64,000 bases of DNA from the sequence record PX092659.1. One strand, 5' to 3'. A program made the translations under genes and the position numbers. The notes beneath the pieces are model-generated. The model ran no database searches. It worked only from the letters and a program-made list of their open reading frames with translations, and was not told where the DNA came from. Shown here piece after piece: positions 38,222 to 50,404 of the stretch. Position 1 is the first letter of the stretch, and the number at the start of each line of letters is the position of its first letter. Source of the stretch: a phage.

Positions 38222-38256
38222 AAAAGCCCCTAAGTCTTTCGACTAGGGGCTTTATT
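38222..38256. terminator. bidirectional rho-independent terminator
   Basis: GCCCCTAAGTC tttc GACTAGGGGC with T-runs on both strands; ends the plus-strand SPFH unit and the minus-strand pair 38471-39901. Confidence 0.7.
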
Positions 38257-38470
38257 GTTTGGTTCTTTAGAACCATATACTCTTGTTACAGCAACCACCC
38301 ATACGGGAGGCCAATCTTGACTGAAAATCTACTCTAGGGGGCAGGATAAGAGTAGGCTTAAAGGCAAACGGATTGAACGCCGGTATTTGTGTAAACATTG
38401 CTGGAGAGCAACAACGTGCTACAGGCATTGGGCAGCACGAAATAGATTTTCTGCAACACATAATTTCTCC

Positions 38471-38887
38471 TTAGGAGTTATTACCACCATTTTGAGCTTT
38501 TGCAACTTGGCTTTGGCAGAAGCTATTAAACTTACCCATAAGTGATACAAGCTGTTTCCCATCCTCTGTCTTTGCGAAGTCTTCGAAAAGGGCTAGTACT
38601 GCCTGTCCTTCCGCAGAAACCTGCGGTTGTTGGGTTTGTTGCTGAACTTGCTGCTGAGGCACCTGTTGCTGCATTTGTTGAGGCATTTGCGACTGCCCGC
38701 TCATTTGCTGCATCATTTGCATAGGACTCACACTTCCAGGGTTTTGCTGGAGTTGTTGCTGCATCTGTTGCGCTTCTGCTAAACGCTGTTGCAATTGTTG
38801 TAAGTAGGGGTTATCCAGACCCGGAATGGGCTGCTGGGAGCCCATACTTTGATTAAGTCCGTTATTTACAAAACCATATTTACTCAT
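38471..38887 (-). CDS. hypothetical Gln-rich low-complexity protein
   Basis: 138 aa; about 35 percent Gln (QQLQQRLAEAQQMQQQLQQ...); part of the inverted two-gene module. Confidence 0.5.
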   Translation of the reverse strand: MSKYGFVNNGLNQSMGSQQPIPGLDNPYLQQLQQRLAEAQQMQQQLQQNPGSVSPMQMMQQMSGQSQMPQQMQQQVPQQQVQQQTQQPQVSAEGQAVLALFEDFAKTEDGKQLVSLMGKFNSFCQSQVAKAQNGGNNS

Positions 38888-38908
38888 AATGGGCTCCTCC
38901 CCTTAATA

Positions 38909-39901
38909 TTAAGCCGGCAGTTTAGCCTGCAGACCAGCCAGAGTCTGAGTGATAGCACCAAGACTTACAGCGATTTGATTAATTACCTGACCGTTAGCAC
39001 CGTTACCCGCAGCGATTGCTTCACGTAGGCGACATGCATCTAACTCATCCTGAATACGAGCAGTAGTTACACCAGCGATAGCAGTCTGAAGTTCACAGCA
39101 ACATTCAGCGATCTGACGTTCCAGAGAGTTCTGGTTAGCACACATCTGAGCCTGAACAGCGGCAAACTGGTTATTAGTTTGTAAAGTCTGCTGGAAAGCG
39201 ATCTGTGCAGAATCAAACTTATCTTGTGCACGAGCTATCTGATTAGCTGCGAAAGATTGATCAATCTGGCGAGAAAGATCGAACTGACCCTGAATAACGT
39301 TGCGAGTTTCCTGACAGATCTGATTAGACAGATTAGCACCTGTACCATAGATCGTAGTTAGTACAGACTGAGTATCACGGCTCTGGTTTTGGGATGTCTG
39401 GCTAAACCCATTGTTAACTGCGCTTAAAACAGCTCCAGTACCCTGGTTAGCTTCTGTACGAGTAGTGTTAATAGCTGCTAGAATACTAGCGGTATCTTGG
39501 TTCTGAAGTACTGCATCAACTGCGGTACCATCACCAACTACACCACGTCCACCGAATCCACCGAAACCACCGAATCCGCCTGTTAATAGAGCACCGATTA
39601 GGATAGCTCCGAATAGTCCCATACCTTCACCACCGAAAGCACCTGCGTTTGCTGGGTAACCACCCAGTAGGCCAGGGAAGCCACTAGTAAATACGTTTAC
39701 TGGTTCTTGCATTTTATGTTTTCCATATTTATGACAATGTTCATCGTCATCTTCTTCATCATCGTGTTCACGATGTTTTTCTTCGTAGGCTCTGACCTTC
39801 TCCCACTTTTTCTTATCTGATTCCTCGTGACGGTGCAGTTCTGCTGCAACGCTAGCGACGGTCTCAGGACTCTTAGCTACTTCTTCTGTCATTTTTGACA
39901 C
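38909..39901 (-). CDS. hypothetical membrane protein with glycine-zipper TM segment and Gln/Asn/Cys-rich C-terminal domain
   Basis: 330 aa; acidic/His-rich N-terminus, Gly-zipper TM (GLFGAILIGALLTGGFGGFGGFGG), Q/N/T-rich C-terminal half with Cys clusters (AECCCELQ); AGGAGGTG RBS. Confidence 0.55.
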   Translation of the reverse strand: MSKMTEEVAKSPETVASVAAELHRHEESDKKKWEKVRAYEEKHREHDDEEDDDEHCHKYGKHKMQEPVNVFTSGFPGLLGGYPANAGAFGGEGMGLFGAILIGALLTGGFGGFGGFGGRGVVGDGTAVDAVLQNQDTASILAAINTTRTEANQGTGAVLSAVNNGFSQTSQNQSRDTQSVLTTIYGTGANLSNQICQETRNVIQGQFDLSRQIDQSFAANQIARAQDKFDSAQIAFQQTLQTNNQFAAVQAQMCANQNSLERQIAECCCELQTAIAGVTTARIQDELDACRLREAIAAGNGANGQVINQIAVSLGAITQTLAGLQAKLPA

Positions 39902-39952
39902 CTCCTAGTATATAGAAAATGTGTGTCTCTTTGATCACTCATCCATAACATA

Positions 39953-39981
39953 TACTTTACACTACCCCAGCGAAAATGTCA
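39953..39981 (-). promoter_or_regulatory. second promoter class (minus): TTGACATTTTCGC-type
   Basis: Reverse complement reads TTGACA ttttcgctggggtagtg TAAAGT; shares the 13-nt TTGACATTTTCGC with 9576-9604. Confidence 0.55.
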
Positions 39982-40098
39982 AGGGGTCTTTAAAAATTGC
40001 CCCTGAATTTTTAGTGGGGTCACAAATTTTGGTCCTCACCATTTATCTGCTATCCTTAAGTGCCCTATGATTTTCCTCTAAAAAGTTAAAAAATTTGA

Positions 40099-40127
40099 TT
40101 GCTTGAATGCTAAATTCTCTGTATAAT
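40099..40127 (+). promoter_or_regulatory. sigma70-type early promoter: TTGCTT-N17-TATAAT
   Basis: Cassette match. Confidence 0.6.
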
Positions 40128-40157
40128 ATATCTATAAATTTGAAAGAGGAACCAAAT

Positions 40158-40676
40158 ATGAATGTTGATGAGCTAACACAGCACCTCTTATCTAGAGGAT
40201 TTGATACAGATAAATATCATTGCTGGTTAAGTCCGGAAGGATGGCTAACAGTCCCGTTGTATGACTTCTCTGGGATGTTGAGGGGCTATCAAACTTATAA
40301 TCCTTCTGCTCCAAAAGGTCATGGTAAGTGCCCCTTTGAAGCTAAATACTTTACTTATTCTACTACCCAGTGTGTATGGGGACTAGAAACTCTCAATGGA
40401 GATGAAAAAGTAGTATTGATTGCTGAATCTGTATTTAAGGCAGTTGCGTTACATAATGCTGGTTATCCAGCCCTAGCAATGTTGGGTTCTTCTCCAGGAA
40501 AAGCGTTATTAAAGCAACTGAAATTACTACCTTTTAAATTGGTAGCTGTCGGAGATAATGATCCTGCGGGTGAAAAATTTGCTAGAAAATTAAACGGCTT
40601 TGTTTCTCCCGTAGATGTGGATGAGATGTCTACCGAAAACTTGAAAAATTTTCTTGCTATGAAGCTAAATTTCTAA
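40158..40676 (+). CDS. small TOPRIM-domain-like protein
   Basis: ATG 40158 after GAAAGAGGAAC RBS (track ORF extends to 40107); TOPRIM-like Glu (LIAESVFK) and DxD (AVGDNDPAG). Confidence 0.45.
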   Translation: MNVDELTQHLLSRGFDTDKYHCWLSPEGWLTVPLYDFSGMLRGYQTYNPSAPKGHGKCPFEAKYFTYSTTQCVWGLETLNGDEKVVLIAESVFKAVALHNAGYPALAMLGSSPGKALLKQLKLLPFKLVAVGDNDPAGEKFARKLNGFVSPVDVDEMSTENLKNFLAMKLNF

Positions 40677-40682
40677 TATAAT
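40654..40682 (+). promoter_or_regulatory. sigma70-type early promoter: TTGCTA-N17-TATAAT (inside 3' end of previous ORF)
   Basis: Cassette match; would drive the tRNA-Ser/tRNA-Met pair. Confidence 0.55.
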
Positions 40683-40697
40683 ATATCTTATAAATTC

Positions 40698-40786
40698 GGA
40701 AGAATAGCATAACGGTATTGCAGCAGATTGCTAATCTGTCGGCTTGAAATATAGCCTTGTGGGTTCGATTCCCACTTCTTCCGCCA
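40698..40786 (+). tRNA. tRNA-Ser (anticodon GCT), class II
   Basis: Acceptor GGAAGAA/TTCTTCC, anticodon loop TTGCTAA, long variable arm, T-arm GTGGG-TTCGATT-CCCAC, G73-CCA. Confidence 0.75.
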
Positions 40787-40792
40787 AACATA

Positions 40793-40867
40793 GGGTCGGT
40801 AGCTTAAAGTTAAAGCGGTGGCCTCATAAGCTAACGAGTAGGAGTTAGATTCTCCTCCGACCCACCA
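40793..40867 (+). tRNA. tRNA with CAT anticodon (Met, fMet or Ile2 type)
   Basis: Perfect acceptor GGGTCGG/CCGACCC, D-stem GCTT/AAGC, anticodon loop CTCATAA, T-arm AGGAG-TTAGATT-CTCCT. Confidence 0.7.
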
Positions 40868-40881
40868 ATTAGGTACTGCGT

Positions 40882-41283
40882 ATGGAAAAGGTTGAATTTG
40901 AGTACTTTGGAGTTATTTTAATTGTACACTTAAATGGTACAATAGAAACTAAAGATAGAATAATAACACAACGAAATCAATATGGCGAGTATACTAGAAC
41001 TATAAAAGGAAAGGTACTGTCTCCACGTTGCAATGGTAAATCTGGGTATTTTCAGGTGAAGATTTGCAATAAGGGATTAGGTAAAAATGAGTATGTGCAC
41101 AGACTCGTATGGATGGCTTTCAACGGTGAAATACCGGAAGGCTATGAAATAGAGCACAAAGATGATGATAAGTCTAATAATGCTTTACCTAACCTAGAAT
41201 TATTCACAAGAAAGCAGAATATGGACAAAGTCTTAAATAAGATGACTAGAGATTCTCTAGGTCGTTTTGAAAAACTTAACTAG
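40882..41283 (+). CDS. HNH homing endonuclease (divergent copy) inside tRNA cluster
   Basis: 133 aa; HRLVWMAFNGEIPEGYEIEHKDDDKSNNALPNLELFTRKQN. Confidence 0.6.
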   Translation: MEKVEFEYFGVILIVHLNGTIETKDRIITQRNQYGEYTRTIKGKVLSPRCNGKSGYFQVKICNKGLGKNEYVHRLVWMAFNGEIPEGYEIEHKDDDKSNNALPNLELFTRKQNMDKVLNKMTRDSLGRFEKLN

Positions 41284-41291
41284 GAGACTAT

Positions 41292-41477
41292 ATGTCTAAG
41301 TTTCAAGAACTCAAGCAAGAGCTAGAAGAATGTGCCTGCCCTGAGTGTAGAGGAATTGGTGAAAGTTCTGATGCAGAAGCAGGAGATACTTTTTGCAATA
41401 TCTGGGTTTGCCCAACTTGCAATGGTACAGGTATTAATCCTAACTGCGGTATTTCCCTAGATATTGAGCGAGGATAA
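41292..41477 (+). CDS. hypothetical small Cys-rich protein (two CxxC pairs)
   Basis: 61 aa; CACPECRG ... CPTCNG. Confidence 0.45.
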   Translation: MSKFQELKQELEECACPECRGIGESSDAEAGDTFCNIWVCPTCNGTGINPNCGISLDIERG

Positions 41478-41578
41478 TACCTGTGAAACTAAAAGATTAT
41501 TATATTGGTTGGTTTGTGGGACTAGTAGTAGTATTTTCACTAGGCTATAATATGTATCAACTAATAAACTGATTACAT

Positions 41579-41655
41579 GGGGGTGTAATCGAATTGGCAT
41601 AGGTACTGGACTTAAAATTCAGGTTTTGTGGGTTCGAATCCCACCACCCCTACCA
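41579..41655 (+). tRNA. tRNA with TAA anticodon (Leu-type anticodon) but short variable arm
   Basis: Acceptor GGGGGTG/CACCCCT, anticodon stem CTGGA/TTCAG with loop CTTAAAA, 5-nt variable region, T-arm GTGGG-TTCGAAT-CCCAC, A73-CCA. Confidence 0.6.
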
Positions 41656-41830
41656 AATTAAGGAAATAAGATGTATAGACATCCACCTCCGCCAACACGT
41701 CGTTCCAGAGAAGTTATCCTCATGGAGTTGACTAAAAACTTCAAGGCAACTCTTGAAGATAGAGATTTAGGCACGGATGAAGACATTGATTTTATTTGTA
41801 GACTATTAAAGATGAAACTGGAGAAACAAC

Positions 41831-42037
41831 ATGGCTAATCCTGAAATTACCGCACAACGTTTCATGCTTAAAGGCATGATTGCTGAAGCAGGTATGACTC
41901 AAGAGGTTGCAGACTTTCATAAGCAATTTCTTGATATTATAACTCTAGCTAAAGAGACTGGAGAAAAAGAACACGGAGCAGCAATTATGGCTATATCTCT
42001 TATTAGTCTAGACTTGGCTGAAGAATCTGGAGTTTAG
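41831..42037 (+). CDS. hypothetical protein
   Basis: 68-aa track ORF; a 56-aa ORF at about 41671-41841 precedes it. Confidence 0.45.
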   Translation: MANPEITAQRFMLKGMIAEAGMTQEVADFHKQFLDIITLAKETGEKEHGAAIMAISLISLDLAEESGV

Positions 42038-42067
42038 CTCCTCCAAACAGAATTTTTAAAAATGTAC

Positions 42068-42097
42068 TTGCCTTTTGCTTTAAATTTCTGATATAAT
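42068..42097 (+). promoter_or_regulatory. sigma70-type promoter (TTGCCT-N18-TATAAT)
   Basis: Cassette-like with 18-nt spacer. Confidence 0.45.
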
Positions 42098-42127
42098 AGT
42101 TATATAAATTGATGAAGGAGTTAACGA

Positions 42128-42403
42128 ATGCAAAATCGTGTTATAGCAGCTGGTATTGAAAGTGCAATCTGTAAATCCTGGGAAGGCTGGGAAGGTGAGA
42201 TTGAATGGCTTTATTTCTATGATGTAGAACTTCTGCCGGAAGTTAAAGCTAAATGTGTTGAAGCTGGCATGGCTCCAGATGCAAAAGCTGATATTGATAT
42301 TTCAATGTCTGAACTTAAAGGTCGTGTAATTACTGTTAGTGATGAGGGCGAAGAAGTCTTCGAACTTCCATTCTCCTTAATTGTCACTCCTAAGTTCGAC
42401 TAA
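42128..42403 (+). CDS. hypothetical protein
   Basis: 91-aa track ORF after GAAGGAG RBS. Confidence 0.5.
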   Translation: MQNRVIAAGIESAICKSWEGWEGEIEWLYFYDVELLPEVKAKCVEAGMAPDAKADIDISMSELKGRVITVSDEGEEVFELPFSLIVTPKFD

Positions 42404-42439
42404 CTAATACAGCACTGAGCAAGTTCTTTAAAATTTGAC

Positions 42440-42468
42440 TTGCTCAGTGCTATAAAACTTGATATAAT
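42440..42468 (+). promoter_or_regulatory. sigma70-type early promoter: TTGCTC-N17-TATAAT
   Basis: Cassette match; drives the RNA-only unit 42496-42938. Confidence 0.55.
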
Positions 42469-42495
42469 AGTTATCTAATTTGGAAAGTTCTTTTT

Positions 42496-42589
42496 AAGGT
42501 AGTTCCTACTTTAGTAGAGTAAATTTTTGGCAGATGGCCCCACCATTTTACCGATAACTCCTAGTCAGTGCGGCAACACTGGCTACCTT
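42496..42589 (+). ncRNA. candidate tRNA-sized structured RNA (non-canonical, no consensus T-loop)
   Basis: Terminal 7-bp helix AAGGTAG/CTACCTT encloses three hairpins (CTAC-ttta-GTAG; ATGG-cccca-CCAT; CAGTG-cggcaa-CACTG); lies between promoter and tRNA-Tyr. Confidence 0.3.
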
Positions 42590-42600
42590 AAAGAGAATTT

Positions 42601-42687
42601 GGGCGTTTATTCCGTAAGTGGTAGCGGAGGGGATTGTAAATCCCTGGTCATTGCGACTCGAGTGGTTCGACTCCATTAACGCCCACC
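42601..42687 (+). tRNA. tRNA-Tyr (anticodon GTA), class II
   Basis: Acceptor GGGCGTT/AACGCCC, anticodon loop TTGTAAA, long variable arm, A73-CCA. Confidence 0.75.
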
Positions 42688-42695
42688 AAATTTAA

Positions 42696-42772
42696 GTCCT
42701 GTTAGACAAACGGGTAAAGTCACTACCCTTTCAAGGTAGGATTTGCGGGTTCGATCCCCGCACAGGACGCCA
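42696..42772 (+). tRNA. tRNA-Glu (anticodon TTC)
   Basis: Acceptor GTCCTGT/ACAGGAC, anticodon stem CTACC/GGTAG with loop CTTTCAA, T-arm GCGGG-TTCGATC-CCCGC. Confidence 0.8.
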
Positions 42773-42780
42773 ATTTCTGC

Positions 42781-42857
42781 ATTCCTAGAGTGTTACTGGA
42801 CAGCATGTCGGTCTCCAAAACCGTACGGTCTAGGTTCGAGTCCTAGTAGGTTTGCCA
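42781..42857 (+). tRNA. tRNA-Trp (anticodon CCA), two U-U mismatches in acceptor stem
   Basis: Anticodon loop CTCCAAA on stem CGGT/ACCG; T-arm CTAGG-TTCGAGT-CCTAG; acceptor ATTCCTA/TAGGTTT pairs at 5 of 7 positions. Confidence 0.55.
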
Positions 42858-42863
42858 AAATTT

Positions 42864-42938
42864 GCACCTTTAGCTGAGATGGATTAGCGCTTGCCTGAAG
42901 AGCTTGAGAGGTTCGTTCGATACGAACAGGGTGCACCA
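42864..42938 (+). tRNA. tRNA-Phe (anticodon GAA)
   Basis: Acceptor GCACCTT/AGGGTGC, D-stem GCTG/TAGC, anticodon loop CTGAAGA, T-arm GTTCG-TTCGATA-CGAAC. Confidence 0.65.
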
Positions 42939-42955
42939 AATTGAAGGAGCTGCTG

Positions 42956-43228
42956 ATGCATCCTGAAAACTTCTTTATTTACTGCGCGGATAAGTCGCTG
43001 AAACGTAGAATTAACAAAGTCTATCATTATCGTGCTAGTCAACAGCCTTATGTATATGCTTTTGACGGTGATCACATTCCACTAGAACAATTATCTTGTG
43101 ATTACATGATATTGAAGAACTTTGACGAGACGAAGATCTCAAGCGTTCATAATCGACAGAATCCCTTAACGTGGAAATATAAGAAGAAAAAGAAAGGCAT
43201 CAAATTCTTAAAAAATGTAGTTGCTTAG
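42956..43228 (+). CDS. hypothetical protein
   Basis: ATG 42956 after GAAGGAG (track ORF starts at TTG 42941). Confidence 0.45.
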   Translation: MHPENFFIYCADKSLKRRINKVYHYRASQQPYVYAFDGDHIPLEQLSCDYMILKNFDETKISSVHNRQNPLTWKYKKKKKGIKFLKNVVA

Positions 43229-43249
43229 TTTCTAAAAGTTCTGTATAAT
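43221..43249 (+). promoter_or_regulatory. sigma70-type early promoter: TTGCTT-N17-TATAAT (within 3' end of previous ORF)
   Basis: Cassette match. Confidence 0.55.
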
Positions 43250-43297
43250 AATTACATAAATTGAACTGGAGAAGCAACATGACAGAACAAGATAAAC

Positions 43298-43373
43298 CGA
43301 CCGTTGGCTGAATGGCTTAGGCGAAGGATTGCAAATCCTTTTTATGTGAGTTCAAATCTCATGCGGTCGTCCA
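43298..43373 (+). tRNA. tRNA-Cys (anticodon GCA)
   Basis: Acceptor CGACCGT/GCGGTCG, anticodon stem AAGGA/TCCTT with loop TTGCAAA, T-arm GTGAG-TTCAAAT-CTCAT. Confidence 0.7.
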
Positions 43374-43380
43374 AATTTTA

Positions 43381-43463
43381 GGGTCGTTAGCCAAGCGGTT
43401 TGGCGGCGGATTGTTAATCCGTGTCGAAAGACAACGTAGGTTCGAATCCTACACGGCCCGCCA
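43381..43463 (+). tRNA. class II-shaped tRNA with GTT (Asn-type) anticodon and G73
   Basis: Acceptor GGGTCGT/ACGGCCC, D-stem GCCA/TGGC, anticodon stem GCGGA/TCCGT with loop TTGTTAA, 13-nt variable arm with GTC/GAC stem, T-arm GTAGG-TTCGAAT-CCTAC. Confidence 0.55.
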
Positions 43464-43565
43464 AATTCTGTGTAGAGTTAAGTAAACCGGTAGCCAACCA
43501 GCTATCATTGCTGACATCGAATTCAGCCACAGATACCATTTTCATTAATAACTGAGGAAACAAGC

Positions 43566-43751
43566 ATGTCCAAGAATGTAATTGCGCAGCTAGAAGTTCA
43601 TCGTGATAGCACTATTAACAATATTGAAGTTGAAAAGAAATACATCGAAGAACTTAAACACGATATACTAGTAAGTCTCAATCGTCTTAATGTACGAAAA
43701 GAGTTTCTTAAAGAACTTAATGCAGCTATTGAAAAACTCAAAGCTGAGTAA
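43566..43751 (+). CDS. hypothetical protein
   Basis: 61-aa track ORF after GAGGAAACAAGC RBS. Confidence 0.45.
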   Translation: MSKNVIAQLEVHRDSTINNIEVEKKYIEELKHDILVSLNRLNVRKEFLKELNAAIEKLKAE

Positions 43752-43760
43752 ATGAATTAT

Positions 43761-43837
43761 GCGACCGGGGCTGGCTTGGTAATGGTACTCCCCTGTCACG
43801 GGAGAGAATGTGGGTTCGAATCCCATCGGTCGCGCCA
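43761..43837 (+). tRNA. tRNA-Asp (anticodon GTC)
   Basis: Acceptor GCGACCG/CGGTCGC, anticodon stem CTCCC/GGGAG with loop CTGTCAC, T-arm TGGG-TTCGAAT-CCCA. Confidence 0.8.
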
Positions 43838-44013
43838 AATAAGGTAGGTTAGCTATGGAATGTAGGGAGTTTACTCCAGAAGAGATAGAGCAGATAAAAG
43901 AATCTGCTATGAAAAATGCTAGAATATCTCTGTCACTGGAAGGTATCATTATTAGTGATGTAAACTTTGAAAAAATCAAAGCCATAGCTGATGAACTGGA
44001 AAAGTAATTTAAT

Positions 44014-44089
44014 ACATCCATAGCTCAATGGTTAGAGCTACCGCCTCTTAAGCGGAGGGTTCTAGGTTCAAGTCCTAGTGGGTGTACCA
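44014..44089 (+). tRNA. tRNA-Lys (anticodon CTT)
   Basis: Acceptor ACATCCA/TGGGTGT, D-arm GCTCAATGGTTAGAGC, anticodon loop CTCTTAA, T-arm CTAGG-TTCAAGT-CCTAG. Confidence 0.65.
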
Positions 44090-44114
44090 AATTAATTTAG
44101 TATGAGAATATACT

Positions 44115-44462
44115 ATGCGTAATGCTAAAGAAGAGCTGTTACTCGCCTTAAAAAATACCAATTCTAAAGTTAAGTGTATTAAAATAGAATTTGGGTATTA
44201 TGGGGACAAAAAAGTCTGGGTATTACCTTTAGGTTATACAGAAGAAGACATTGAGGGGTTTCTTAATAACCTAGACTTTGAATATGATTCTGGATACGGT
44301 GGACAATTACTTTATGGTAATGTATGGTTTGCCGATGGAACTTGGCTAGAACGTGGGGAATATGATGGTGCTGAGTGGTGGGAATACAAGGCTACACCAG
44401 CAATCCCAGAGGAATGCCGAACAATTAATGGTGAAGTAGATAATACTTTACGGTTAAACTAA
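44115..44462 (+). CDS. hypothetical protein
   Basis: 115-aa track ORF. Confidence 0.5.
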   Translation: MRNAKEELLLALKNTNSKVKCIKIEFGYYGDKKVWVLPLGYTEEDIEGFLNNLDFEYDSGYGGQLLYGNVWFADGTWLERGEYDGAEWWEYKATPAIPEECRTINGEVDNTLRLN

Positions 44463-44855
44463 TAAAATTTCAGTGCAGAACACGGAGCTAGCAATTCGGA
44501 AGTGCTGACTCATGATAAGCTGCCTATGTACTTGCAAAGCGGTCGTGTCCAAGACTCGGACTCTTGCACTGAAAACAATCAAACATTCTAGCGTGGTTGA
44601 TGGGGAAACCAGCTTGGCTAGGGCAGAAGCTCGTTCGATTCGAGTGAAAGAATGGTTCTCGTAAGTCCGCACAAGTGATAGCAGGTTCGAGTCCTGTCTA
44701 GAATGATACTATAAAGTTTACTTATTGAGTAGGTTCCGATAGATCGGCGGGTCTATTCTGGCAGTTAAGAGAGGTCTCGCAAACTTCTTTGTCAGCCGTG
44801 GGGTTGGTAGCCTCCAGGTGGCCTACACAATAAGTAAATTTATTAAAAATTCATT

Positions 44856-44884
44856 TGCTATTTCGCTTAATTCTCGGTATAATA
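44856..44884 (+). promoter_or_regulatory. sigma70-type early promoter: TTGCTA-N17-TATAAT
   Basis: Cassette match (coordinates here may be off by 1 nt). Confidence 0.55.
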
Positions 44885-44915
44885 TATCTTATAAAGTGTT
44901 GAGAAGGAAAGCAAA

Positions 44916-45113
44916 ATGAAAAAAGTTTTACTGCTGTCTGTATTCCTACTTACTGGTTGTTTTAAACTTGACTCAACCATTAATAAAGAGTATGAATTTG
45001 CTAAAAATTTCTGTGGCGGAGAGAGTAATATAAAGAATTTCTACATATATAGTACAATTCCTAGTACCGTTTATTGTGTAGACGGACGAATTATTAATAT
45101 TCCTCCACAATAA
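44916..45113 (+). CDS. small lipoprotein (signal peptide with lipobox LLTGC)
   Basis: 65 aa; MKKVLLLSVFLLTGC then mature Cys; AAGGAAAGC RBS. Confidence 0.55.
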   Translation: MKKVLLLSVFLLTGCFKLDSTINKEYEFAKNFCGGESNIKNFYIYSTIPSTVYCVDGRIINIPPQ

Positions 45114-45122
45114 AAGAATTAA

Positions 45123-45198
45123 CAGTGCGTAGCGCAGTTGGTAGCGTGGGAGCCTTGGATGCTTCGGGTCGCAGGTTCGAGTCCTGCCGCACTGACCA
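45123..45198 (+). tRNA. tRNA-Pro (anticodon TGG)
   Basis: Acceptor CAGTGCG/CGCACTG, D-arm GCGCAGTTGGTAGCGT, anticodon stem GGAGC/GCTTC with loop CTTGGAT, T-arm GCAGG-TTCGAGT-CCTGC. Confidence 0.75.
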
Positions 45199-45204
45199 AA
45201 CAAT

Positions 45205-45282
45205 TGCGGGTTAGATCTCTGGTAGAGATCGCTAGTCTCATAAGCTAGAAAGAGGTAGGTTCGATTCCTGCACCCGCTTCCA
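45205..45282 (+). tRNA. tRNA with CAT anticodon (Met/Ile2 type), 1-72 mismatch
   Basis: Anticodon stem CTAGT/GCTAG with loop CTCATAA; T-arm GTAGG-TTCGATT-CCTGC; acceptor TGCGGGT/ACCCGCT has a U-U at position 1-72. Confidence 0.6.
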
Positions 45283-45471
45283 TTTTAATAGAGGGTTTCG
45301 AAATGAAAGTATTTCGATTAGTAGTAAGTGACAAACGTTTAGGTAAGAATACCTCAAAATCCTTACTTGCTCATTATGGAAAAGATGAGAAAGAAGTAAT
45401 GGCGGAGTTTGGGATTAATCACCCTTACTTGAAAGTTCACTCTATTAAAGAAGTATATAATGGTTACTAAT

Positions 45472-45550
45472 AGATCGCTAGCTCAATAGGTTTAGTAGCA
45501 TCCGACTTTTAATCGGAAGGTTCTGGGTTCGAGTCCCAGGCGATCTACCA
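45472..45550 (+). tRNA. tRNA-Lys (anticodon TTT)
   Basis: Perfect acceptor AGATCGC/GCGATCT, anticodon stem TCCGA/TCGGA with loop CTTTTAA, T-arm CTGGG-TTCGAGT-CCCAG. Confidence 0.8.
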
Positions 45551-45568
45551 ATTTCAAGAAAAACGCAG

Positions 45569-45597
45569 TTGCTTAATGCGTAATTTCTTGTTACAAT
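45569..45597 (+). promoter_or_regulatory. sigma70-type early promoter: TTGCTT-N17-TACAAT
   Basis: Cassette variant; followed by about 235 nt of ORF-free leader before tRNA-Ala. Confidence 0.55.
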
Positions 45598-45835
45598 ATT
45601 TATATAAATTGATGAGGAGAAATCCTCGTCATAGTTCACTAAGGTATTAGCTCGACCTAGGACTGGCTGCCAAAAAGCACGATCCCTACGATTCGGGAGA
45701 AGTTCTAGATTAGTCCACTAGATTCAGCGGCAACTGAATAGTGTATCGGGTTTGCGAGATGACGCGGTTCCTTCCGCTCGAAGCGAAGGTGCTGTAGTTA
45801 CGCCGAGCTAATAGCCTTAGTAAACTAAAGAATTT

Positions 45836-45910
45836 GGGCGAATAGTGTCAGCGGGAGCACACCAGACTTGCAATCTGGTAGGGAGGGTTCGAGTCCCTCT
45901 TTGTCCACCA
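45836..45910 (+). tRNA. tRNA-Ala (anticodon TGC)
   Basis: Acceptor GGGCGAA/TTTGTCC with G3-U70 wobble (Ala identity pair), anticodon stem CCAGA/TCTGG with loop CTTGCAA, T-arm GAGGG-TTCGAGT-CCCTC. Confidence 0.8.
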
Positions 45911-45915
45911 AATAC

Positions 45916-45992
45916 GCGTGATTGATGGAATTGGCATACATACCGTCCTTAGAAGTCGGGTTTTGAGGGTTCGAATCCCTTGTCACGCACCA
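45916..45992 (+). tRNA. tRNA with TAG anticodon (Leu-type anticodon) but short variable arm
   Basis: Acceptor GCGTGAT/GTCACGC, anticodon loop CTTAGAA on stem CCGTC/GTCGG (one mismatch), 5-nt variable region, T-arm GAGGG-TTCGAAT-CCCTT, A73. Confidence 0.55.
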
Positions 45993-46104
45993 AATTTGAT
46001 GGTCAGAGTAAATTAAACCTACTATCTCGGTTGAGCTGTTTTAATGGGTTCGAATCCCAGCGAGGCGTAACTGCCTGGCGTGATAGAGGCATCATCTTAT
46101 TACT

Positions 46105-46195
46105 GGAAGAGCAAATCGAATTGGCGACGAAAACCGCTTGGAAAGTGGCTGACTGGTAAAACGGCTTGAGAGTTCAAATCTCTCCTCTTCCGCCA
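46105..46195 (+). tRNA. tRNA-Ser (anticodon GGA), class II
   Basis: Acceptor GGAAGAG/CTCTTCC, anticodon loop TTGGAAA on 4-bp stem, long variable arm, T-arm GAGAG-TTCAAAT-CTCTC, G73-CCA. Confidence 0.6.
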
Positions 46196-46214
46196 AACAC
46201 TTGAGGTAATAATA

Positions 46215-46562
46215 ATGTTAGCAAAAGATAAAGCTCTAGAGTTTTTAGCATCTTTAGATGAAGATAAGATTATAGATGCTGCTGAAAAAGCTGGAATGCC
46301 CGATTTAACATATCTGGAACGTGCTATTATTGCTCGTGATAAACTACAGAAAGAGTTTGCTATTGCCCAGGAGGAGTTTTATACTCGCTATAACGCTCTT
46401 ACTAAGCAAATTGAAAATGAGTGTTCCCATACTTGGGGAGTAACAGAAAACCTAGGTAATGATCACGATGGCTGGTCTAAAGTAAAAATTACCTACTATC
46501 ATCGTAGGACTTGTAAAATTTGTGGAAAAGTAGAAGATTTCACTAGTACGAGTGACTATTAG
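46215..46562 (+). CDS. hypothetical protein
   Basis: 115-aa track ORF after GAGGTAATAATA RBS. Confidence 0.5.
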   Translation: MLAKDKALEFLASLDEDKIIDAAEKAGMPDLTYLERAIIARDKLQKEFAIAQEEFYTRYNALTKQIENECSHTWGVTENLGNDHDGWSKVKITYYHRRTCKICGKVEDFTSTSDY

Positions 46563-46575
46563 TATAATAAATACT

Positions 46576-46665
46576 AGAAGATAGGACGTAGTGGTACGTA
46601 ACTGGTCTTGAAAACCAGCCCGCTGTAGCGATACGGTGATGGTTCGACTCCATTATCTTCTGCCA
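46576..46665 (+). tRNA. tRNA-Ser (anticodon TGA), class II
   Basis: Acceptor AGAAGAT/ATCTTCT, anticodon stem CTGGT/ACCAG with loop CTTGAAA, long variable arm, T-arm GATGG-TTCGACT-CCATT, G73-CCA. Confidence 0.75.
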
Positions 46666-47228
46666 ATTAACTATAAGGAAGTCTTATGAGCAAAACAGTT
46701 ACTGTAACAATGAAGGACGGTAAAAAATTTAAAGCATGTCTTCATGAAACAGATAAGGGGTGGATGGCTTATTTGCCACACCTAGATTCCACCGGGTACG
46801 GAATGACCCAACGTGAAGCTATTGTTGATGCTTTAAATGAGGCTTCTGCTGGTTTATAAAAAATTCTTGAAGTATGCCGGAATCGGTAGACGGGGCTGCC
46901 TAAAAGGTTTATAGGGAACATCCACTCCCTGCAACATACCTCATAAAGCGGCTGAGATAAATGGTCTATCTCGTGAAGGTTCAAGTCCTTCTGCTTCTTG
47001 ATACATCTATGGCTCAAAGTGTAACGGTGCTATTTGATGCTCTTGGTAAGACTTCCCCGACATGCGTTCGGGAGTAAGCTGCTAAGACTAGAGTAGAAGA
47101 GTTTCTGAGAGCCGCCACAATTGAAAATTCGTACTCGTCTTGAGCTGCGTGCAATAGGAGATAACTTGATTAGTATTCTAGAACATGCTAATTGAGGATG
47201 GTTTCGCTAACCCTGCGAGTTTTCAATT

Positions 47229-47305
47229 GTGGCTATATCATAATTGGTTAATGATCCTGATTGTGAATCAGGCCTATGTGGATTCGAATTCCACTAGCCA
47301 CCCCA
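47229..47305 (+). tRNA. tRNA-His (anticodon GTG)
   Basis: Acceptor GTGGCTA/TAGCCAC, C73, anticodon stem CCTGA/TCAGG with loop TTGTGAA, T-arm GTGGA-TTCGAAT-TCCAC. Confidence 0.8.
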
Positions 47306-47330
47306 AATTAACTTAAATAGGAAATAAAAT

Positions 47331-47528
47331 ATGGCTGATTTCTGCAAACAATGCTCCATTGATATGTGGGGCAGAGATACTGGTGATCTTTCTGGTTTGA
47401 TTACAGAAGCTGAGGTCAAAGAAGGTTATGGTGCAGTTGTGATTTGCGAAGGATGCGGAGTTATTCGAGTAGATCATGAAGGCAAACGTTTAAAAGAACC
47501 GGAAAACTTAGGAGAAACAAATGAGTAA
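47331..47528 (+). CDS. hypothetical small Cys-containing protein
   Basis: 65-aa track ORF; CKQC ... CEGCG. Confidence 0.45.
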   Translation: MADFCKQCSIDMWGRDTGDLSGLITEAEVKEGYGAVVICEGCGVIRVDHEGKRLKEPENLGETNE

Positions 47529-47757
47529 TGCTTTAATTAGTGAAATTATGTTAACACGTCTTGCAGAACTGCAAACTCTTCGAGATGAATCTCAGAATAA
47601 CTTAGCCTATCATAAACAGATGGTAGATACTCTTACTACTCGTATTGAAACTTACGAGCGTGATATTGCAGCATTACAGGCTCTTTTCTCAGTATCAGCA
47701 CCAGATACTTTAGAGCAGCCTGTTGTATCTCAGCCAGTAGAAACAGCATCTAGTTAA
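47521..47757 (+). CDS. hypothetical protein
   Basis: 78-aa track ORF, start overlaps upstream stop. Confidence 0.45.
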   Translation: MSNALISEIMLTRLAELQTLRDESQNNLAYHKQMVDTLTTRIETYERDIAALQALFSVSAPDTLEQPVVSQPVETASS

Positions 47758-47766
47758 TAGCATTTT

Positions 47767-47842
47767 TGGAGTGTAGATCAATTGGCAGATCGTCGGCCTC
47801 TGACTCCGAAGGTTCCTGGTTCGATCCCAGGCACTCCAGCCA
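47767..47842 (+). tRNA. tRNA-Gln (anticodon CTG)
   Basis: Acceptor TGGAGTG/CACTCCA, D-stem GATC/GATC, anticodon loop CTCTGAC, T-arm CCTGG-TTCGATC-CCAGG. Confidence 0.75.
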
Positions 47843-47848
47843 AATAAT

Positions 47849-47924
47849 TGGAGAGTAGTGTAACGGTTAGCACAACGGCCTTTGACTCCGTTAATGGTAG
47901 GTTCGATTCCTCCTTCTCCAGCCA
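47849..47924 (+). tRNA. tRNA-Gln (anticodon TTG)
   Basis: Acceptor TGGAGAG/TTCTCCA, anticodon loop CTTTGAC; near-duplicate of the adjacent Gln(CTG) gene. Confidence 0.7.
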
Positions 47925-47932
47925 AGTAATAA

Positions 47933-48008
47933 GCGGTTAAGCACACGGGTTGTGTCGCAGGCCTTCCAAGCCTCGCTGAGTAGGGTTCGATTCCCTCTAG
48001 CCGCTCCA
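47933..48008 (+). tRNA. tRNA-Gly (anticodon TCC)
   Basis: Acceptor GCGGTTA/TAGCCGC, anticodon stem AGGC/GCCT with loop CTTCCAA, T-arm AGGG-TTCGATT-CCCT. Confidence 0.65.
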
Positions 48009-48024
48009 ACTTTAAGGAAACGTT

Positions 48025-48276
48025 ATGCACGTTTTTGAGTTTCGTAATAAAAGTACCGATAAACGAGTTATTGTTATTGGAGAAACATACCGAGCATACG
48101 AACAAACTGACGGCTCTGTCATCCTGAATGATGAGAAAGGAGGTTTTAGCTTTTATCCAGAAGAACCTTATGAAGAGTTTCGAAAACAATTTAACCTAGA
48201 CTGGAGAAAGCATTTAAACACTGTTGCTTCATCTGTAGTATTGCCAACTACCAGTACTGTACTATCTAATGGCTGA
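48025..48276 (+). CDS. hypothetical protein
   Basis: 83-aa track ORF; a 52-aa ORF follows at about 48271-48432. Confidence 0.45.
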   Translation: MHVFEFRNKSTDKRVIVIGETYRAYEQTDGSVILNDEKGGFSFYPEEPYEEFRKQFNLDWRKHLNTVASSVVLPTTSTVLSNG

Positions 48277-48443
48277 TAACCTAAAAGTCAAGATCGACAA
48301 ACAAAAGAAACGTGTAGAAGTAGAGATTGGTGAAGAACGTGTAGCCTTCACCTTTGAATTCCTACAACAAATGGCAATGGTAGTTATGACTGATAAGTCT
48401 CCTGTTATTGAAAAAGAAATCCCGTTGAAATAACGGGATCATC

Positions 48444-48518
48444 GCTCCTAAAGCATTGCTGGCGATGCAGTTGCCTTGTAAGCATCTGAACCGGGTTCGA
48501 TTCCTGGTGGGAGCACCA
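48444..48518 (+). tRNA. tRNA-Thr (anticodon TGT)
   Basis: Acceptor GCTCCTA/TGGGAGC, D-arm GCATTGCTGGCGATGC, anticodon loop CTTGTAA, T-arm CCGGG-TTCGATT-CCTGG. Confidence 0.75.
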
Positions 48519-48533
48519 AATTTAAAAATTCAT

Positions 48534-48562
48534 TTGCTTTCTCTCTTATTTATTGTTATAAT
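48534..48562 (+). promoter_or_regulatory. sigma70-type early promoter: TTGCTT-N17-TATAAT
   Basis: Cassette match. Confidence 0.6.
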
Positions 48563-48592
48563 ATTTATATAAATTAATGAGAGGGAAACCAA

Positions 48593-48883
48593 ATGAAACG
48601 TTATCTTTCTGTTGTGTTCCAAACTGGTGGTCAACGCTATACCTATGAATTTCCTAGCTCTTGGAAGATCAAAGAAGGTGATCAAGTAGTAGTGTTAACA
48701 CCGCGAGATGGATATAAAGTAGTAACGGTTAAACAAGTATTCCCAAAAGATCATGAACCAGCTAAAGGCATTCGCTATAAGATGATTCATGGTGTGGTTC
48801 GTCAAGTACCACGAACTGAGGTAGAAGTAGATAAGACTGGAGAAGCTAAATTCCGTTATACTTCTTACCTAGATAGTGTGTGA
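48593..48883 (+). CDS. hypothetical protein
   Basis: 96-aa track ORF after GAGAGGGAAACC RBS. Confidence 0.5.
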   Translation: MKRYLSVVFQTGGQRYTYEFPSSWKIKEGDQVVVLTPRDGYKVVTVKQVFPKDHEPAKGIRYKMIHGVVRQVPRTEVEVDKTGEAKFRYTSYLDSV

Positions 48884-48898
48884 TGTAAATATTTTAAT

Positions 48899-48975
48899 GC
48901 TTCGGTAGCTTAGCGATCTAAAGCACTCGGCTGATAACCGAGAGATCGGGGGTTTAAATCCCTCCCGGAGTACCA
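48899..48975 (+). tRNA. tRNA-Ile (anticodon GAT)
   Basis: Acceptor GCTTCGG/CCGGAGT, D-stem GCTT/AAGC, perfect anticodon stem CTCGG/CCGAG with loop CTGATAA, T-arm GGGGG-TTTAAAT-CCCTC. Confidence 0.75.
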
Positions 48976-49071
48976 AATTTAGGAATTAAGACTATGCGTC
49001 CAGGAAAGTTTAAAAAAGCTAGTTGGTCTAAAGAGTATAAAGAATACTTACTTAGTCTAATAAAACATAAT

Positions 49072-49147
49072 AGTTAGTTGGCAGAGTGGTTATGCACCTC
49101 CTTCATACGGAGCGACTACAGTGGTTCAAATCCACTACTAACTACCA
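49072..49147 (+). tRNA. tRNA with CAT anticodon (Met/fMet/Ile2 type)
   Basis: Perfect acceptor AGTTAGT/ACTAACT, anticodon stem CTCC/GGAG with loop TTCATAC, T-arm AGTGG-TTCAAAT-CCACT. Confidence 0.7.
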
Positions 49148-49170
49148 AATTCTAACATCGGGGAGATCTA

Positions 49171-49539
49171 ATGAAAGCATATCAAAACCTTAAATCTGGC
49201 GTAATTAACCTTGTTCATGAAAATCAGATTATTCAGCTATACTCCGACAACGGTGAACTTAAACAGAAAGTTCTAGTTGAAGATCTAGAAGGTATCACAC
49301 CACAATTCGATCCTGAATCCTTCCGTGAAGTTAAGGTGGAAGTCGCCCCTCAAATCGAAGGTGGTCAGCACCTAAATGTCAATGTATTAAGCCGTGATCA
49401 GCTTTTGGATGCACAGAAACATCCTGAAAAATATCCTCAGTTGACCATCCGTGTCTCTGGCTACGCTGTTCGATTTAATGCACTGACTCGTGAACAACAG
49501 AACGACGTTATTAGTCGTACATTTACTCAGGCGATGTAA
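49171..49539 (+). CDS. autonomous glycyl-radical cofactor-like protein (GrcA/YfiD-like)
   Basis: 122 aa; C-terminal glycyl-radical signature [19 protein letters not shown], the PFL/GrcA-type motif rather than the NrdD-type. Confidence 0.65.
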
Positions 49540-49620
49540 TGGGGTTTGGGTACGATTTCTCCGAACTACGTGGGGTAGTCGAGCAAACTCCATTTATCTC
49601 CCAAGTTTTAGGAGAAATGT

Positions 49621-49935
49621 GTGGATCGAGCATTAAGACGCCATCACCGGCAACGTGTGAAGAACAACCGCAGGAAGTATTGGACAGTCTTCCCACATGA
49701 AGAAAGCCCTAAGCGGTTAGGTATTATCACTACTACTCCTTGCATCTGTTCTTGTTGGATGTGTGGGAACCCTCGCAAATACTATAAGAATAGTAAAGCA
49801 GGCATGAAAATTTCGGAGATTAGGAAAATGGAAGCAATGATTATGGGCATCTCAAATGATGAATTTGATGACTTTGTAGGATTCGGAGAAGGAATCAGCT
49901 CAGGCTGTTTCGAAGATGAGCGCCCCGATCTGTAA
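49621..49935 (+). CDS. hypothetical basic Cys-rich protein (GTG start, uncertain)
   Basis: 104 aa; CICSCWMCGNPRKY; no cassette promoter directly upstream; terminator downstream. Confidence 0.35.
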   Translation: MDRALRRHHRQRVKNNRRKYWTVFPHEESPKRLGIITTTPCICSCWMCGNPRKYYKNSKAGMKISEIRKMEAMIMGISNDEFDDFVGFGEGISSGCFEDERPDL

Positions 49936-49944
49936 TTAATAATA

Positions 49945-49980
49945 AACCCCAGCTATTGAATAAGTAGTCTGGGGTTTTTC
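49945..49980 (+). terminator. rho-independent terminator
   Basis: ACCCCAG ... CTGGGGT stem followed by TTTTC. Confidence 0.7.
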
Positions 49981-50056: not shown

Positions 50057-50404
50057 ATGAGCCGTACTTATCGTAAACAATCTGGTGATCAGTGGTGGAA
50101 GTCTAAAGAACAATTCTCTCAAGAATATTCTTTCTTCAAAGAAAATGGCTACTGGATTCGTGTTATTTATGCTAAATCCTGGGATGATATAAAACAGGAA
50201 ATGAAGGAAGCAACCATTCGTAATGAGAAAAAGGATGGTTATAACTGGAATTCTATTAGTAAGAATGTTAAGTGGCATTCTAATAAAATGGTTCGTCAAG
50301 GGAATCGTCAAGAACTCCACCGCGTGATGAAAGATCCAGAAAATTACGACTATAATCGCGATCATGACATGCGTAAGCGTGGATTATGGTGGTGCTATGA
50401 CTAA
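50057..50404 (+). CDS. hypothetical Trp-rich protein
   Basis: 115-aa track ORF after GGAGGTAATATG; antisense track ORF 50024-50365 rejected. Confidence 0.5.
   Translation: MSRTYRKQSGDQWWKSKEQFSQEYSFFKENGYWIRVIYAKSWDDIKQEMKEATIRNEKKDGYNWNSISKNVKWHSNKMVRQGNRQELHRVMKDPENYDYNRDHDMRKRGLWWCYD

What the first reader, a model, noticed from the sequence alone, without database searches (positions are those of the whole stretch)
49171..49539. Stand-alone glycyl-radical spare-part protein (GrcA/YfiD-like)
A 122-aa protein ending in RVSGYAVRF, the pyruvate formate-lyase/GrcA-type glycyl-radical motif; the phage NrdD instead carries RVCGYLG. A GrcA-like protein can replace the oxygen-cleaved C-terminus of host PFL, so the phage may sustain host anaerobic metabolism, or repair a glycyl-radical enzyme, during infection.
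Basis: partly seen in the sequence, partly recalled or inferred. Interest (0 to 1): 0.55.

Follow-up and report, generated by a model that had tools for sequence, protein, structure and literature searches.

The report
Phage T5 GrcA-like glycyl-radical spare part
This is the T5-family copy of a small "spare part" protein that can replace the oxygen-broken end of the host's pyruvate formate-lyase; the gene is real and conserved, but it has been annotated in T5 for years and its T4 counterpart was tested in 2001, so it is ordinary.

Summary
Window 49171-49539 (+) is a 122-aa ORF. Residues 61-122 are a pyruvate-formate-lyase-type glycyl-radical domain (Pfam Gly_radical, E 3.6e-18). That domain is 48/62 identical to E. 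coli GrcA, 49/62 to PflB and 51/62 to TdcE.

One detail is wrong. RVSGYAVRF lies at residues 94-102, and 20 residues follow it. The contrast with the phage NrdD (RVCGYLG, 21032-22858 minus strand) is correct.

The window is a T5-like phage (Tequintavirus). The gene is the orthologue of T5.056 (96% identical), which the T5 record annotates from its glycine-radical domain. Records of close relatives (95.9-99.2% identical) name it "autonomous glycyl radical cofactor". An identical protein is already in NCBI. The region is in about 455 phage records. It evolves under strong purifying selection (dN/dS 0.01-0.18).

The T4 homologue vs.6 (Y06I) was shown in 2001 to be activated by PFL activase and to restore oxygen-cleaved PFL.

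The T5-clade N-terminal half differs. It has no detectable similarity to bacterial GrcA and keeps the protein below NCBIfam's GrcA cut-off. No PflA- or NrdG-type activase is encoded, so the phage must rely on host PflA. Function in T5-like phages has not been tested.

The parts
49171..49539 (+). GrcA-like gene (orthologue of T5.056), 122 aa plus stop codon
   Evidence: ORF list and sequence. 96% identical to T5.056. An identical protein, P0001, is in NCBI. PHROG 1209 matches over the full length, E 7.9e-48. dN/dS is 0.01-0.18 among six T5-like orthologues.
49171..49350 (+). N-terminal half (residues 1-60), specific to the T5 clade
   Evidence: An HMM of bacterial GrcA N-halves aligns only 7 residues (E 0.011 for a single comparison). 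An HMM of other phage-type N-halves gives E 3.4e-5 over residues 33-58. BLASTP against the T4 vs.6 N-half finds nothing. The half is under purifying selection, dN/dS 0.01-0.25. AlphaFold2 predicts beta strands at pLDDT of about 55-76.
49351..49536 (+). Glycyl-radical domain (residues 61-122), PFL/GrcA type
   Evidence: Pfam PF01228 covers residues 62-103. Identity is 48/62 to GrcA, 49/62 to PflB and 51/62 to TdcE. The top Foldseek hit is the YfiD NMR structure 6OWR, followed by the PFL C-terminus.
49450..49476 (+). RVSGYAVRF motif; the radical glycine G97 is at 49459-49461
   Evidence: Motif scan. R94 to N103 are invariant in all 34 aligned homologues.
49160..49165 (+). Shine-Dalgarno-like GGGGAG, 5 nt before the ATG
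   Evidence: Read directly from the sequence. Salmonella phage Seabear's record annotates a ribosome-binding site at a similar distance (5 nt) upstream of its orthologue.
48534..48562 (+). Probable early promoter, equivalent to T5 P11 (TTGCTT, 17-nt spacer, TATAAT)
   Evidence: The window is about 94% identical across the stretch that the T5 record annotates as promoter P11. Transcription from here is an inference. The consensus scan missed the site because the -35 hexamer matches only 3 of 6 positions.
48593..48883 (+). First ORF of the inferred transcription unit (T5.058 homologue, 96 aa, function unknown)
48899..49147 (+). tRNA-Ile (48899-48975) and tRNA-Met (49072-49147), between the promoter and the gene
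   Evidence: ARAGORN. T5 has the same order.
49621..49935 (+). Downstream ORF in the same unit (T5.055 homologue, 104 aa, contains CICSCWMC, function unknown)
49944..49979 (+). Rho-independent terminator (AAACCCCAG ... CTGGGGTTTTT)
   Evidence: The hairpin and T-run are identical to the stretch annotated as a terminator after T5.055 in the T5 record. The scan missed it because its loop is 16 nt.

Best explanation
[quoted passage not shown] It is probably transcribed early, from the T5 P11-type promoter, together with tRNA genes. This timing is an inference from the conserved promoter and terminator. The proposed mechanism has three steps, all inferred from the E. coli YfiD and T4 Y06I work rather than shown for this protein. 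First, when oxygen cleaves host pyruvate formate-lyase (PflB, possibly also TdcE) at its radical glycine, the phage protein binds the damaged enzyme. Second, host PFL activase (PflA) installs a radical on G97. [quoted passage not shown] The phage encodes neither a PFL body nor an activase, so both must come from the host. The likely benefit rests on general knowledge of T5 biology, namely that T5 degrades host DNA so the cell can no longer make new PflB or GrcA. A phage-encoded 14-kDa spare part would then keep fermentative energy and acetyl-CoA supply running in microaerobic or fluctuating-oxygen habitats such as the gut.
For: Domain identity and family hits: Pfam Gly_radical. The best NCBIfam hits are GrcA, GrcA3 and GrcA2, then PFL. 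The PDB search returns YfiD and PflB. The domain is 48-51 of 62 identical to GrcA, PflB and TdcE, with RVSGYAV, the [10 protein letters not shown] strand and [19 protein letters not shown] all identical. The fold model matches 6OWR and the PFL C-terminus. RVSGYAV is the PFL-AE substrate peptide. T4 Y06I and YfiD are validated spare parts. T4 vs.6 is a phage homologue found by tblastn and aligned over its full length, and its record annotates it as GrcA. It is a real, selected gene: the region is in 455 records, and about 436 records carry a copy at least 80% identical in protein. Escherichia and Salmonella record counts for the region (132, 274) match those for the DNA polymerase region (131, 270). 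dN/dS is 0.01-0.18. GC3 is phage-like in both halves. No PFL body and no PflA or NrdG homologue were found in the window or in the complete 108-kb relative FFH1.
Against: No experiment exists for any T5-clade protein, and literature searches found none. The protein scores 121.6 bits against NCBIfam's GrcA cut-off of 170. Its N-terminal 60 residues show no significant similarity to the bacterial GrcA N-half. In YfiD that half is needed for binding cleaved PFL and for efficient radical installation (PMC8683613). Binding to PflB could therefore differ. The structure model is of modest confidence (pLDDT 68.5).
Confidence: 0.8

Rival explanations
1. The protein is a decoy or inhibitor. It binds host PflA or PflB through the conserved radical domain but, because of its divergent N-terminal half, blocks fermentative pyruvate cleavage or redirects it (for example, it titrates PflA) rather than repairing it.
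For: The N-terminal half is unrelated in sequence to that of bacterial GrcA, and the protein falls below the GrcA equivalog cut-off. In YfiD the N-half governs binding and activation.
Against: Every residue of the radical loop and the flanking strand and helices that would be needed for catalysis is conserved, under very strong purifying selection (C-half dN/dS mostly below 0.1). A mere binder would not need an intact G97 context. T4 Y06I also has a diverged N-half and restores activity.
Confidence: 0.07
2. The protein is a spare part for a glycyl-radical enzyme other than PflB. The main candidate is host TdcE (2-ketobutyrate formate-lyase); the phage's own NrdD is another.
For: The 25 residues from Y98 to the C-terminus are closest to TdcE, and overall identity is 51/62 to TdcE against 49/62 to PflB. 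tblastn gives 83.6% identity to TdcE and 79.0% to PflB. The phage carries an oxygen-sensitive NrdD.
Against: The TdcE-PflB difference is only 2 residues. TdcE and PflB are close paralogues served by the same activase, so this is a nuance of the main explanation rather than a true alternative. For NrdD, BLASTP finds no alignment between the radical domains, and the NrdD C-terminus has a CxxC...CxxC zinc site that this protein lacks.
Confidence: 0.08
3. The gene is a functionless remnant of captured host pflB, tdcE or grcA 3' sequence.
For: It matches only the 3' end of host genes.
Against: The ORF is intact in hundreds of genomes, has dN/dS far below 1 in both halves and a conserved ribosome-binding site. 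Nucleotide identity to the host genes is only 71-75%, and GC3 is phage-like, so it is not a recent capture.
Confidence: 0.02

Closest known systems
Phage T5 gene T5.056 (YP_006884.1) and its orthologues in Tequintavirus and Epseptimavirus
   Same: It has the same gene, the same position directly after the last tRNA-Met of the tRNA cluster, and the same flanking promoter and terminator. It is 96% identical in protein. An identical protein is deposited from Salmonella phage Kenya-K16.
   Different: Nothing substantive differs. Some relatives (FFH1, T5_ev219) carry an extra 195-nt ORF between the tRNA-Met and the gene. Deposited names vary and are often wrong, for example pyruvate formate-lyase, 2-ketobutyrate formate-lyase and acetyltransferase-like.
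Phage T4 Y06I (gene vs.6), an experimentally validated autonomous glycyl-radical cofactor
   Same: It is a stand-alone phage protein of about 120 aa with the same PFL-type radical domain (48/62 identical). The first five residues, MKAYQ, are shared, and the length and layout are similar.
   Different: The N-terminal halves are not alignable by BLASTP. The T4 C-terminal 185 nt is nearly identical to E. coli grcA DNA, a recent host-derived conversion, whereas the T5-clade gene is 71-75% identical to all host paralogues and has phage-like GC3. The genomic context also differs: a tRNA cluster here, the regB-denV region in T4.
E. coli GrcA (YfiD), NCBIfam TIGR04365, PDB 6OWR
   Same: The radical domain is about 77% identical (48/62), it has the same RVSGYAV glycine loop and the same [10 protein letters not shown] strand that duplicates PFL beta-10, and the size is similar.
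   Different: It is below the family's curated cut-off (121.6 against 170 bits). The N-terminal 50-60 residues are not detectably homologous. It is encoded by a virulent phage and expressed from a phage early-type promoter.
C-terminal glycyl-radical domain of PflB and TdcE (formate C-acetyltransferase)
   Same: The last 61-62 residues are 79-84% identical.
   Different: It lacks the catalytic barrel of about 700 residues that carries Cys418 and Cys419, so it cannot be a formate-lyase by itself.

Membership tests
Autonomous glycyl-radical cofactor GrcA/YfiD (TIGR04365, IPR011140) | Small stand-alone protein (about 120-130 aa) with no PFL catalytic barrel | tested here: met
   The ORF is 122 aa and is bounded by a tRNA gene and the next ORF. 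PflB and TdcE align only over their last 61-62 residues.
Autonomous glycyl-radical cofactor GrcA/YfiD (TIGR04365, IPR011140) | C-terminal PFL-type glycyl-radical domain with the RVSGYAV loop and the preceding [10 protein letters not shown] strand | tested here: met
   Pfam PF01228 E 3.6e-18. All of these residues are identical to GrcA and PflB. The model matches 6OWR.
Autonomous glycyl-radical cofactor GrcA/YfiD (TIGR04365, IPR011140) | Score at or above the curated equivalog cut-off (170 bits) | tested here: not met
   The score is 121.6 bits, and only residues 50-122 align. By this strict criterion it is a GrcA-like protein rather than an equivalog.
Autonomous glycyl-radical cofactor GrcA/YfiD (TIGR04365, IPR011140) | N-terminal region of about 60 residues homologous to that of GrcA (needed in YfiD for binding cleaved PFL) | tested here: not met
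   An HMM of bacterial N-halves gives E 0.011 for a single comparison and aligns 7 residues. Other phage-type N-halves match the same HMM at 1e-6 to 5e-11. Homology can be argued only through intermediates (E 3.4e-5 to the phage-type N-half HMM).
Autonomous glycyl-radical cofactor GrcA/YfiD (TIGR04365, IPR011140) | Radical installed on the glycine by PFL activase (PflA) | not testable with these tools
   Only the identical substrate motif can be shown. No phage-encoded activase was found.
Autonomous glycyl-radical cofactor GrcA/YfiD (TIGR04365, IPR011140) | Restores activity to oxygen-cleaved PFL | not testable with these tools
   This has been shown only for YfiD and T4 Y06I.
PHROG 1209 (phage GrcA-like proteins, listed as function unknown) | Full-length profile match | tested here: met
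   E 7.9e-48, residues 1-122 against profile positions 1-121 of 121.
Pyruvate formate-lyase / formate C-acetyltransferase (the name given in many GenBank records) | Catalytic barrel of about 750 aa with the Cys418/Cys419 active site | tested here: not met
   TIGR01255 scores 85.8 bits against a cut-off of 994, and only profile positions 683-744 match.
Class III ribonucleotide reductase radical domain (NrdD) | RVCGY loop preceded by a CxxC...CxxC zinc site, with similarity to the NrdD C-terminus | tested here: not met
   BLASTP finds no alignment to the phage's own NrdD in this region, and the protein has no cysteines there.

The most novel reading that the evidence does not exclude
The clade-specific, selectively constrained N-terminal half may give the T5-family protein a different recognition logic from GrcA and Y06I. 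It might dock onto TdcE or onto undamaged or differently damaged PflB, or become radicalised without needing cleaved PFL. The phage would then actively rewire host pyruvate metabolism rather than merely repair it. It might also act together with the co-transcribed 104-aa CxxxCxxC protein.
Probability: 0.1. Interest if true: 0.5.

Novelty: already known. Interest (0 to 1): 0.15.

Why it matters
Virulent enterobacterial phages of several lineages carry a metabolic helper that keeps an oxygen-sensitive host fermentation enzyme working: T5-like, T4-like and jumbo phages. That fits life in the gut, where oxygen fluctuates. The concept was established for T4 in 2001, and the T5 gene has been recognised through its glycine-radical domain in the T5 reference record. 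This window therefore adds no new kind of biology. Two things remain open: an in vivo phenotype for any phage GrcA, and the role of the diverged N-terminal half.

Tried and rejected
1. The sigma-70 and terminator consensus scan around the gene found no promoter upstream and no terminator downstream. Comparison with the annotated T5 record then showed a conserved P11 promoter and terminator that the scan's thresholds miss.

2. BLASTP of the N-terminal 60 residues against the T4 vs.6 N-half gave no alignment. HMM tests gave only weak signals. I therefore do not claim direct homology of the N-half to GrcA.

3. I searched for a phage-encoded activase with tblastn of E. coli PflA and NrdG and a CxxxCxxC scan, in the window and in the complete FFH1 genome. 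Nothing turned up except a 104-aa ORF, which is too small to be a radical-SAM enzyme. Collection-wide tblastn with PflA and NrdG listed no enterobacterial T5-like phage among the rows shown. That is not exhaustive.

4. I tested the idea that the 104-aa CxxxCxxC neighbour is a general partner of phage GrcA. It is confined to T5-likes and a few jumbo phages, and the listed rows include no T4-like phage. I rejected it as a general partner.

5. Literature searches for glycyl radical or formate-lyase combined with T5, T5-like or Tequintavirus returned no papers.

6. A recent capture from the host is rejected. Nucleotide identity to grcA, pflB and tdcE is 71-75% and GC3 is phage-like. T4 vs.6 is different in this respect.

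Full report
**Observation.** Window 49171-49539 (+) is an ATG-to-TAA ORF of 122 aa. RVSGYAVRF occupies residues 94-102 (nt 49450-49476), and the radical glycine is G97. A six-frame scan for R[IV][SCT]GY finds only this site and RVCGYLG near the C-terminus of the phage NrdD. NrdD lies at 21032-22858 on the minus strand and is 608 aa.

**What the window is.** The window carries 24 tRNA genes between 37 and 49 kb. It matches T5-like phages of Escherichia and Salmonella at 95-97.5% identity. It is collinear with most of the Tequintavirus FFH1 genome. The gene starts 23 nt after the last tRNA-Met of the cluster.

**What the protein is.**
- Pfam Gly_radical matches at E 3.6e-18, 66.5 bits against a cut-off of 22.2.
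- The best NCBIfam models are GrcA (TIGR04365, 121.6 bits), GrcA3 and GrcA2, then PFL. None reaches its curated cut-off, and only residues 50-122 align to GrcA.
- Against solved structures, the best hits are YfiD (6OWR, E 1.2e-30) and E. coli PFL residues 698-759 (E 5e-27).
- I fetched E. coli K-12 grcA, pflB and tdcE. The last 62 residues are 48/62 identical to GrcA, 49/62 to PflB, 51/62 to TdcE and 48/62 to T4 vs.6.
- In 34 aligned homologues, the block E63-G64-G65, H67, L68 and the whole stretch from Y88 to N103 ([16 protein letters not shown]) are invariant.
- An AlphaFold2 model (pLDDT 68.5) shows a low-confidence segment (residues 59-71), a helix, a beta hairpin with G97 at its tip, and a final helix. 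Its top Foldseek hits are 6OWR and then the PFL C-terminus.
- tblastn with full-length PflB or TdcE matches only their last 61-62 residues, in the window and in FFH1. The phage therefore has the radical domain but no PFL body.

**Is it a real gene?** Yes.
- The region is in 455 phage records.
- tblastn finds 1585 records in all. About 436 of them are at least 80% identical; these are the T5-likes.
- Escherichia and Salmonella record counts for this region (132, 274) equal those for the DNA polymerase region (131, 270). The gene is thus essentially universal in enterobacterial T5-likes.
- Among six orthologues, Nei-Gojobori dN/dS is 0.01-0.18 over the full length, 0.01-0.25 in the N-half, and mostly below 0.1 in the C-half.
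- A GGGGAG Shine-Dalgarno sequence lies 5 nt upstream of the ATG.

**Already known.** The gene is the orthologue of T5.056 (96% identical). The T5 reference record annotates T5.056 as [quoted passage not shown]. To my knowledge IPR001150 is the glycine-radical domain entry. An identical protein is in NCBI from Salmonella phage Kenya-K16, named formate-lyase. Relatives 95.9-99.2% identical are annotated "autonomous glycyl radical cofactor", and T5_ev219 calls it GrcA.

The T4 homologue vs.6 is annotated GrcA in NC_000866. It is Y06I, which Wagner et al. (2001, PMID 11444864) showed, together with YfiD, to be radicalised by PFL activase and to reconstitute oxygen-cleaved PFL. PMC8683613 states that these two are the only validated spare-part proteins. 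Homologues also occur in jumbo phages such as K64-1, SE_PL and fHe-Yen9-03. I found no paper that discusses the T5-clade gene.

**Mechanism.** The YfiD model comes from PMC8683613.
1. Oxygen cleaves PFL at G734.
2. Unactivated YfiD binds cleaved PFL. Binding depends on PFL residues 696-733 and on YfiD residues 1-60.
3. The YfiD glycine loop is then presented to PflA and radicalised.
4. The loop flips into the PFL active site and passes the radical to C419.

The window protein keeps every element of the radical domain. This includes RVSGYAV, the peptide crystallised in PflA (3CB8).

Neither the window nor the complete relative FFH1 encodes any PflA- or NrdG-like protein. Activation must therefore use host PflA, and the phage NrdD presumably uses host NrdG.

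My explanation for why T5 carries the gene is an inference from general T5 biology. T5 destroys host DNA early, so neither PflB nor host GrcA can be resynthesised. A small phage-encoded spare part would then preserve fermentative acetyl-CoA and ATP supply when oxygen fluctuates.

**Transcription context.** The T5 record annotates promoter P11 upstream of T5.058 and a rho-independent terminator after T5.055. The promoter stretch is about 94% identical in the window and the terminator hairpin is identical. The promoter is TTGCTT, 17-nt spacer, TATAAT at 48534-48562. The terminator hairpin is at 49944-49979. The inferred unit therefore runs, in order:
- a 96-aa ORF;
- tRNA-Ile;
- tRNA-Met;
- the GrcA-like gene;
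- a 104-aa ORF.

**What differs from GrcA.** The N-terminal half is clade-specific.
- An HMM of bacterial GrcA N-halves aligns only 7 residues of it (E 0.011 for one comparison).
- The same HMM recognises most of the other phage-type N-halves in the alignment (mainly jumbo-phage and metagenomic sequences) at 1e-6 to 5e-11.
- An HMM of those phage N-halves matches the T5 clade at E 3.4e-5.
- BLASTP against the T4 vs.6 N-half finds nothing.

Because the N-half matters for binding and activation in YfiD, this is the main uncertainty. It is also the reason the protein fails the NCBIfam equivalog cut-off.

**Evolutionary origin.** The T5-clade gene is 71-75% identical in DNA to the 3' ends of grcA, pflB and tdcE. 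Its GC3 is phage-like in both halves (32% and 36%). It is therefore an old resident of the phage, and no donor can be identified.

**Rivals.**
- Decoy or inhibitor (0.07). This is disfavoured by the complete conservation of the catalytic loop and by the T4 precedent.
- Spare part for TdcE or NrdD (0.08). TdcE is a plausible additional target, since the tail after the glycine is closest to TdcE. NrdD is not, because there is no domain similarity.
- Non-functional remnant (0.02). This is refuted by the selection analysis.

**Verdict.** It is already known: T5.056 is annotated in the T5 reference record from its glycine-radical domain, close relatives are annotated as GrcA, and the T4 counterpart was characterised biochemically in 2001. 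Interest is low. The remaining value lies in the untested in vivo role and in the divergent N-terminal half.

Noticed in passing
L002:5558-5920 (phage T4 vs.6, minus strand) compared with L003:4067-4450 (E. coli grcA): T4 vs.6 (Y06I) is a mosaic. Its last 185 nt or so differ from E. coli K-12 grcA at only 4 internal positions, with a sharp boundary at the start of the radical domain. GC3 jumps from 19% in the N-half to 40% in the C-half. This suggests a recent gene conversion from host grcA. The T5-clade gene shows nothing like it.
   Followed up: partly
window 49621-49935 (+): A 104-aa ORF (T5.055 homologue, phrog_4499, no Pfam hit) lies in the same inferred transcription unit, directly after the GrcA-like gene. 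It has a very basic N-terminus and the motif CICSCWMCGNPRK (CxxxCxxC). It is the only ORF of at least 90 aa with that motif in the window and in the complete FFH1 genome. It is too small to be a radical-SAM activase. It is confined to T5-likes and a few jumbo phages. Its function is unknown.
   Followed up: partly
window 49539-49700 (+): The ATG of a 53-aa ORF overlaps the GrcA-like stop codon (ATGTAATGG). It matches phrog_31464 (E 3.7e-35) and is annotated in phage TrudiGerster. It overlaps the 104-aa ORF by 80 nt in another frame, so at least one of the two gene models or start sites may be wrong.
   Followed up: no
window 20638-23803 (NrdD 21032-22858 minus strand; ORF 22845-23765 minus strand): The phage encodes an anaerobic ribonucleotide reductase, NrdD, but no NrdG activase, either here or in the complete relative FFH1. 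This NrdD region has no local blastn match (E <= 1e-50) to FFH1's NrdD region, although both flanks are 92-97% identical. A 306-aa ORF with repeated CxxC zinc-ribbon-like units overlaps the NrdD start and may be a homing-endonuclease-like insertion.
   Followed up: partly
window 49148-49170, compared with L011:27710-27983 (FFH1) and L001:4749-5022 (T5_ev219): FFH1, T5_ev219 and many other relatives carry an insertion of about 250 nt with a 195-nt ORF between the tRNA-Met and the GrcA-like gene. The window, T5 itself and NBEco001 lack it.
   Followed up: no
GenBank records of T5-like phages: The 122-aa protein is deposited under many misleading names: pyruvate formate-lyase, 2-ketobutyrate formate-lyase, formate acetyltransferase, acetyltransferase-like protein, and ribonucleotide reductase subunit for a 67-aa fragment. 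PHROG 1209 lists the family as function unknown.
   Followed up: yes
window 37090-49147 (+): There are 24 tRNA genes interspersed with small ORFs of unknown function (for example DUF7293 at 48269-48433; DUF7295 at 50057-50404 lies just downstream of the cluster), all on the plus strand, as in the T5 tRNA region.
   Followed up: no
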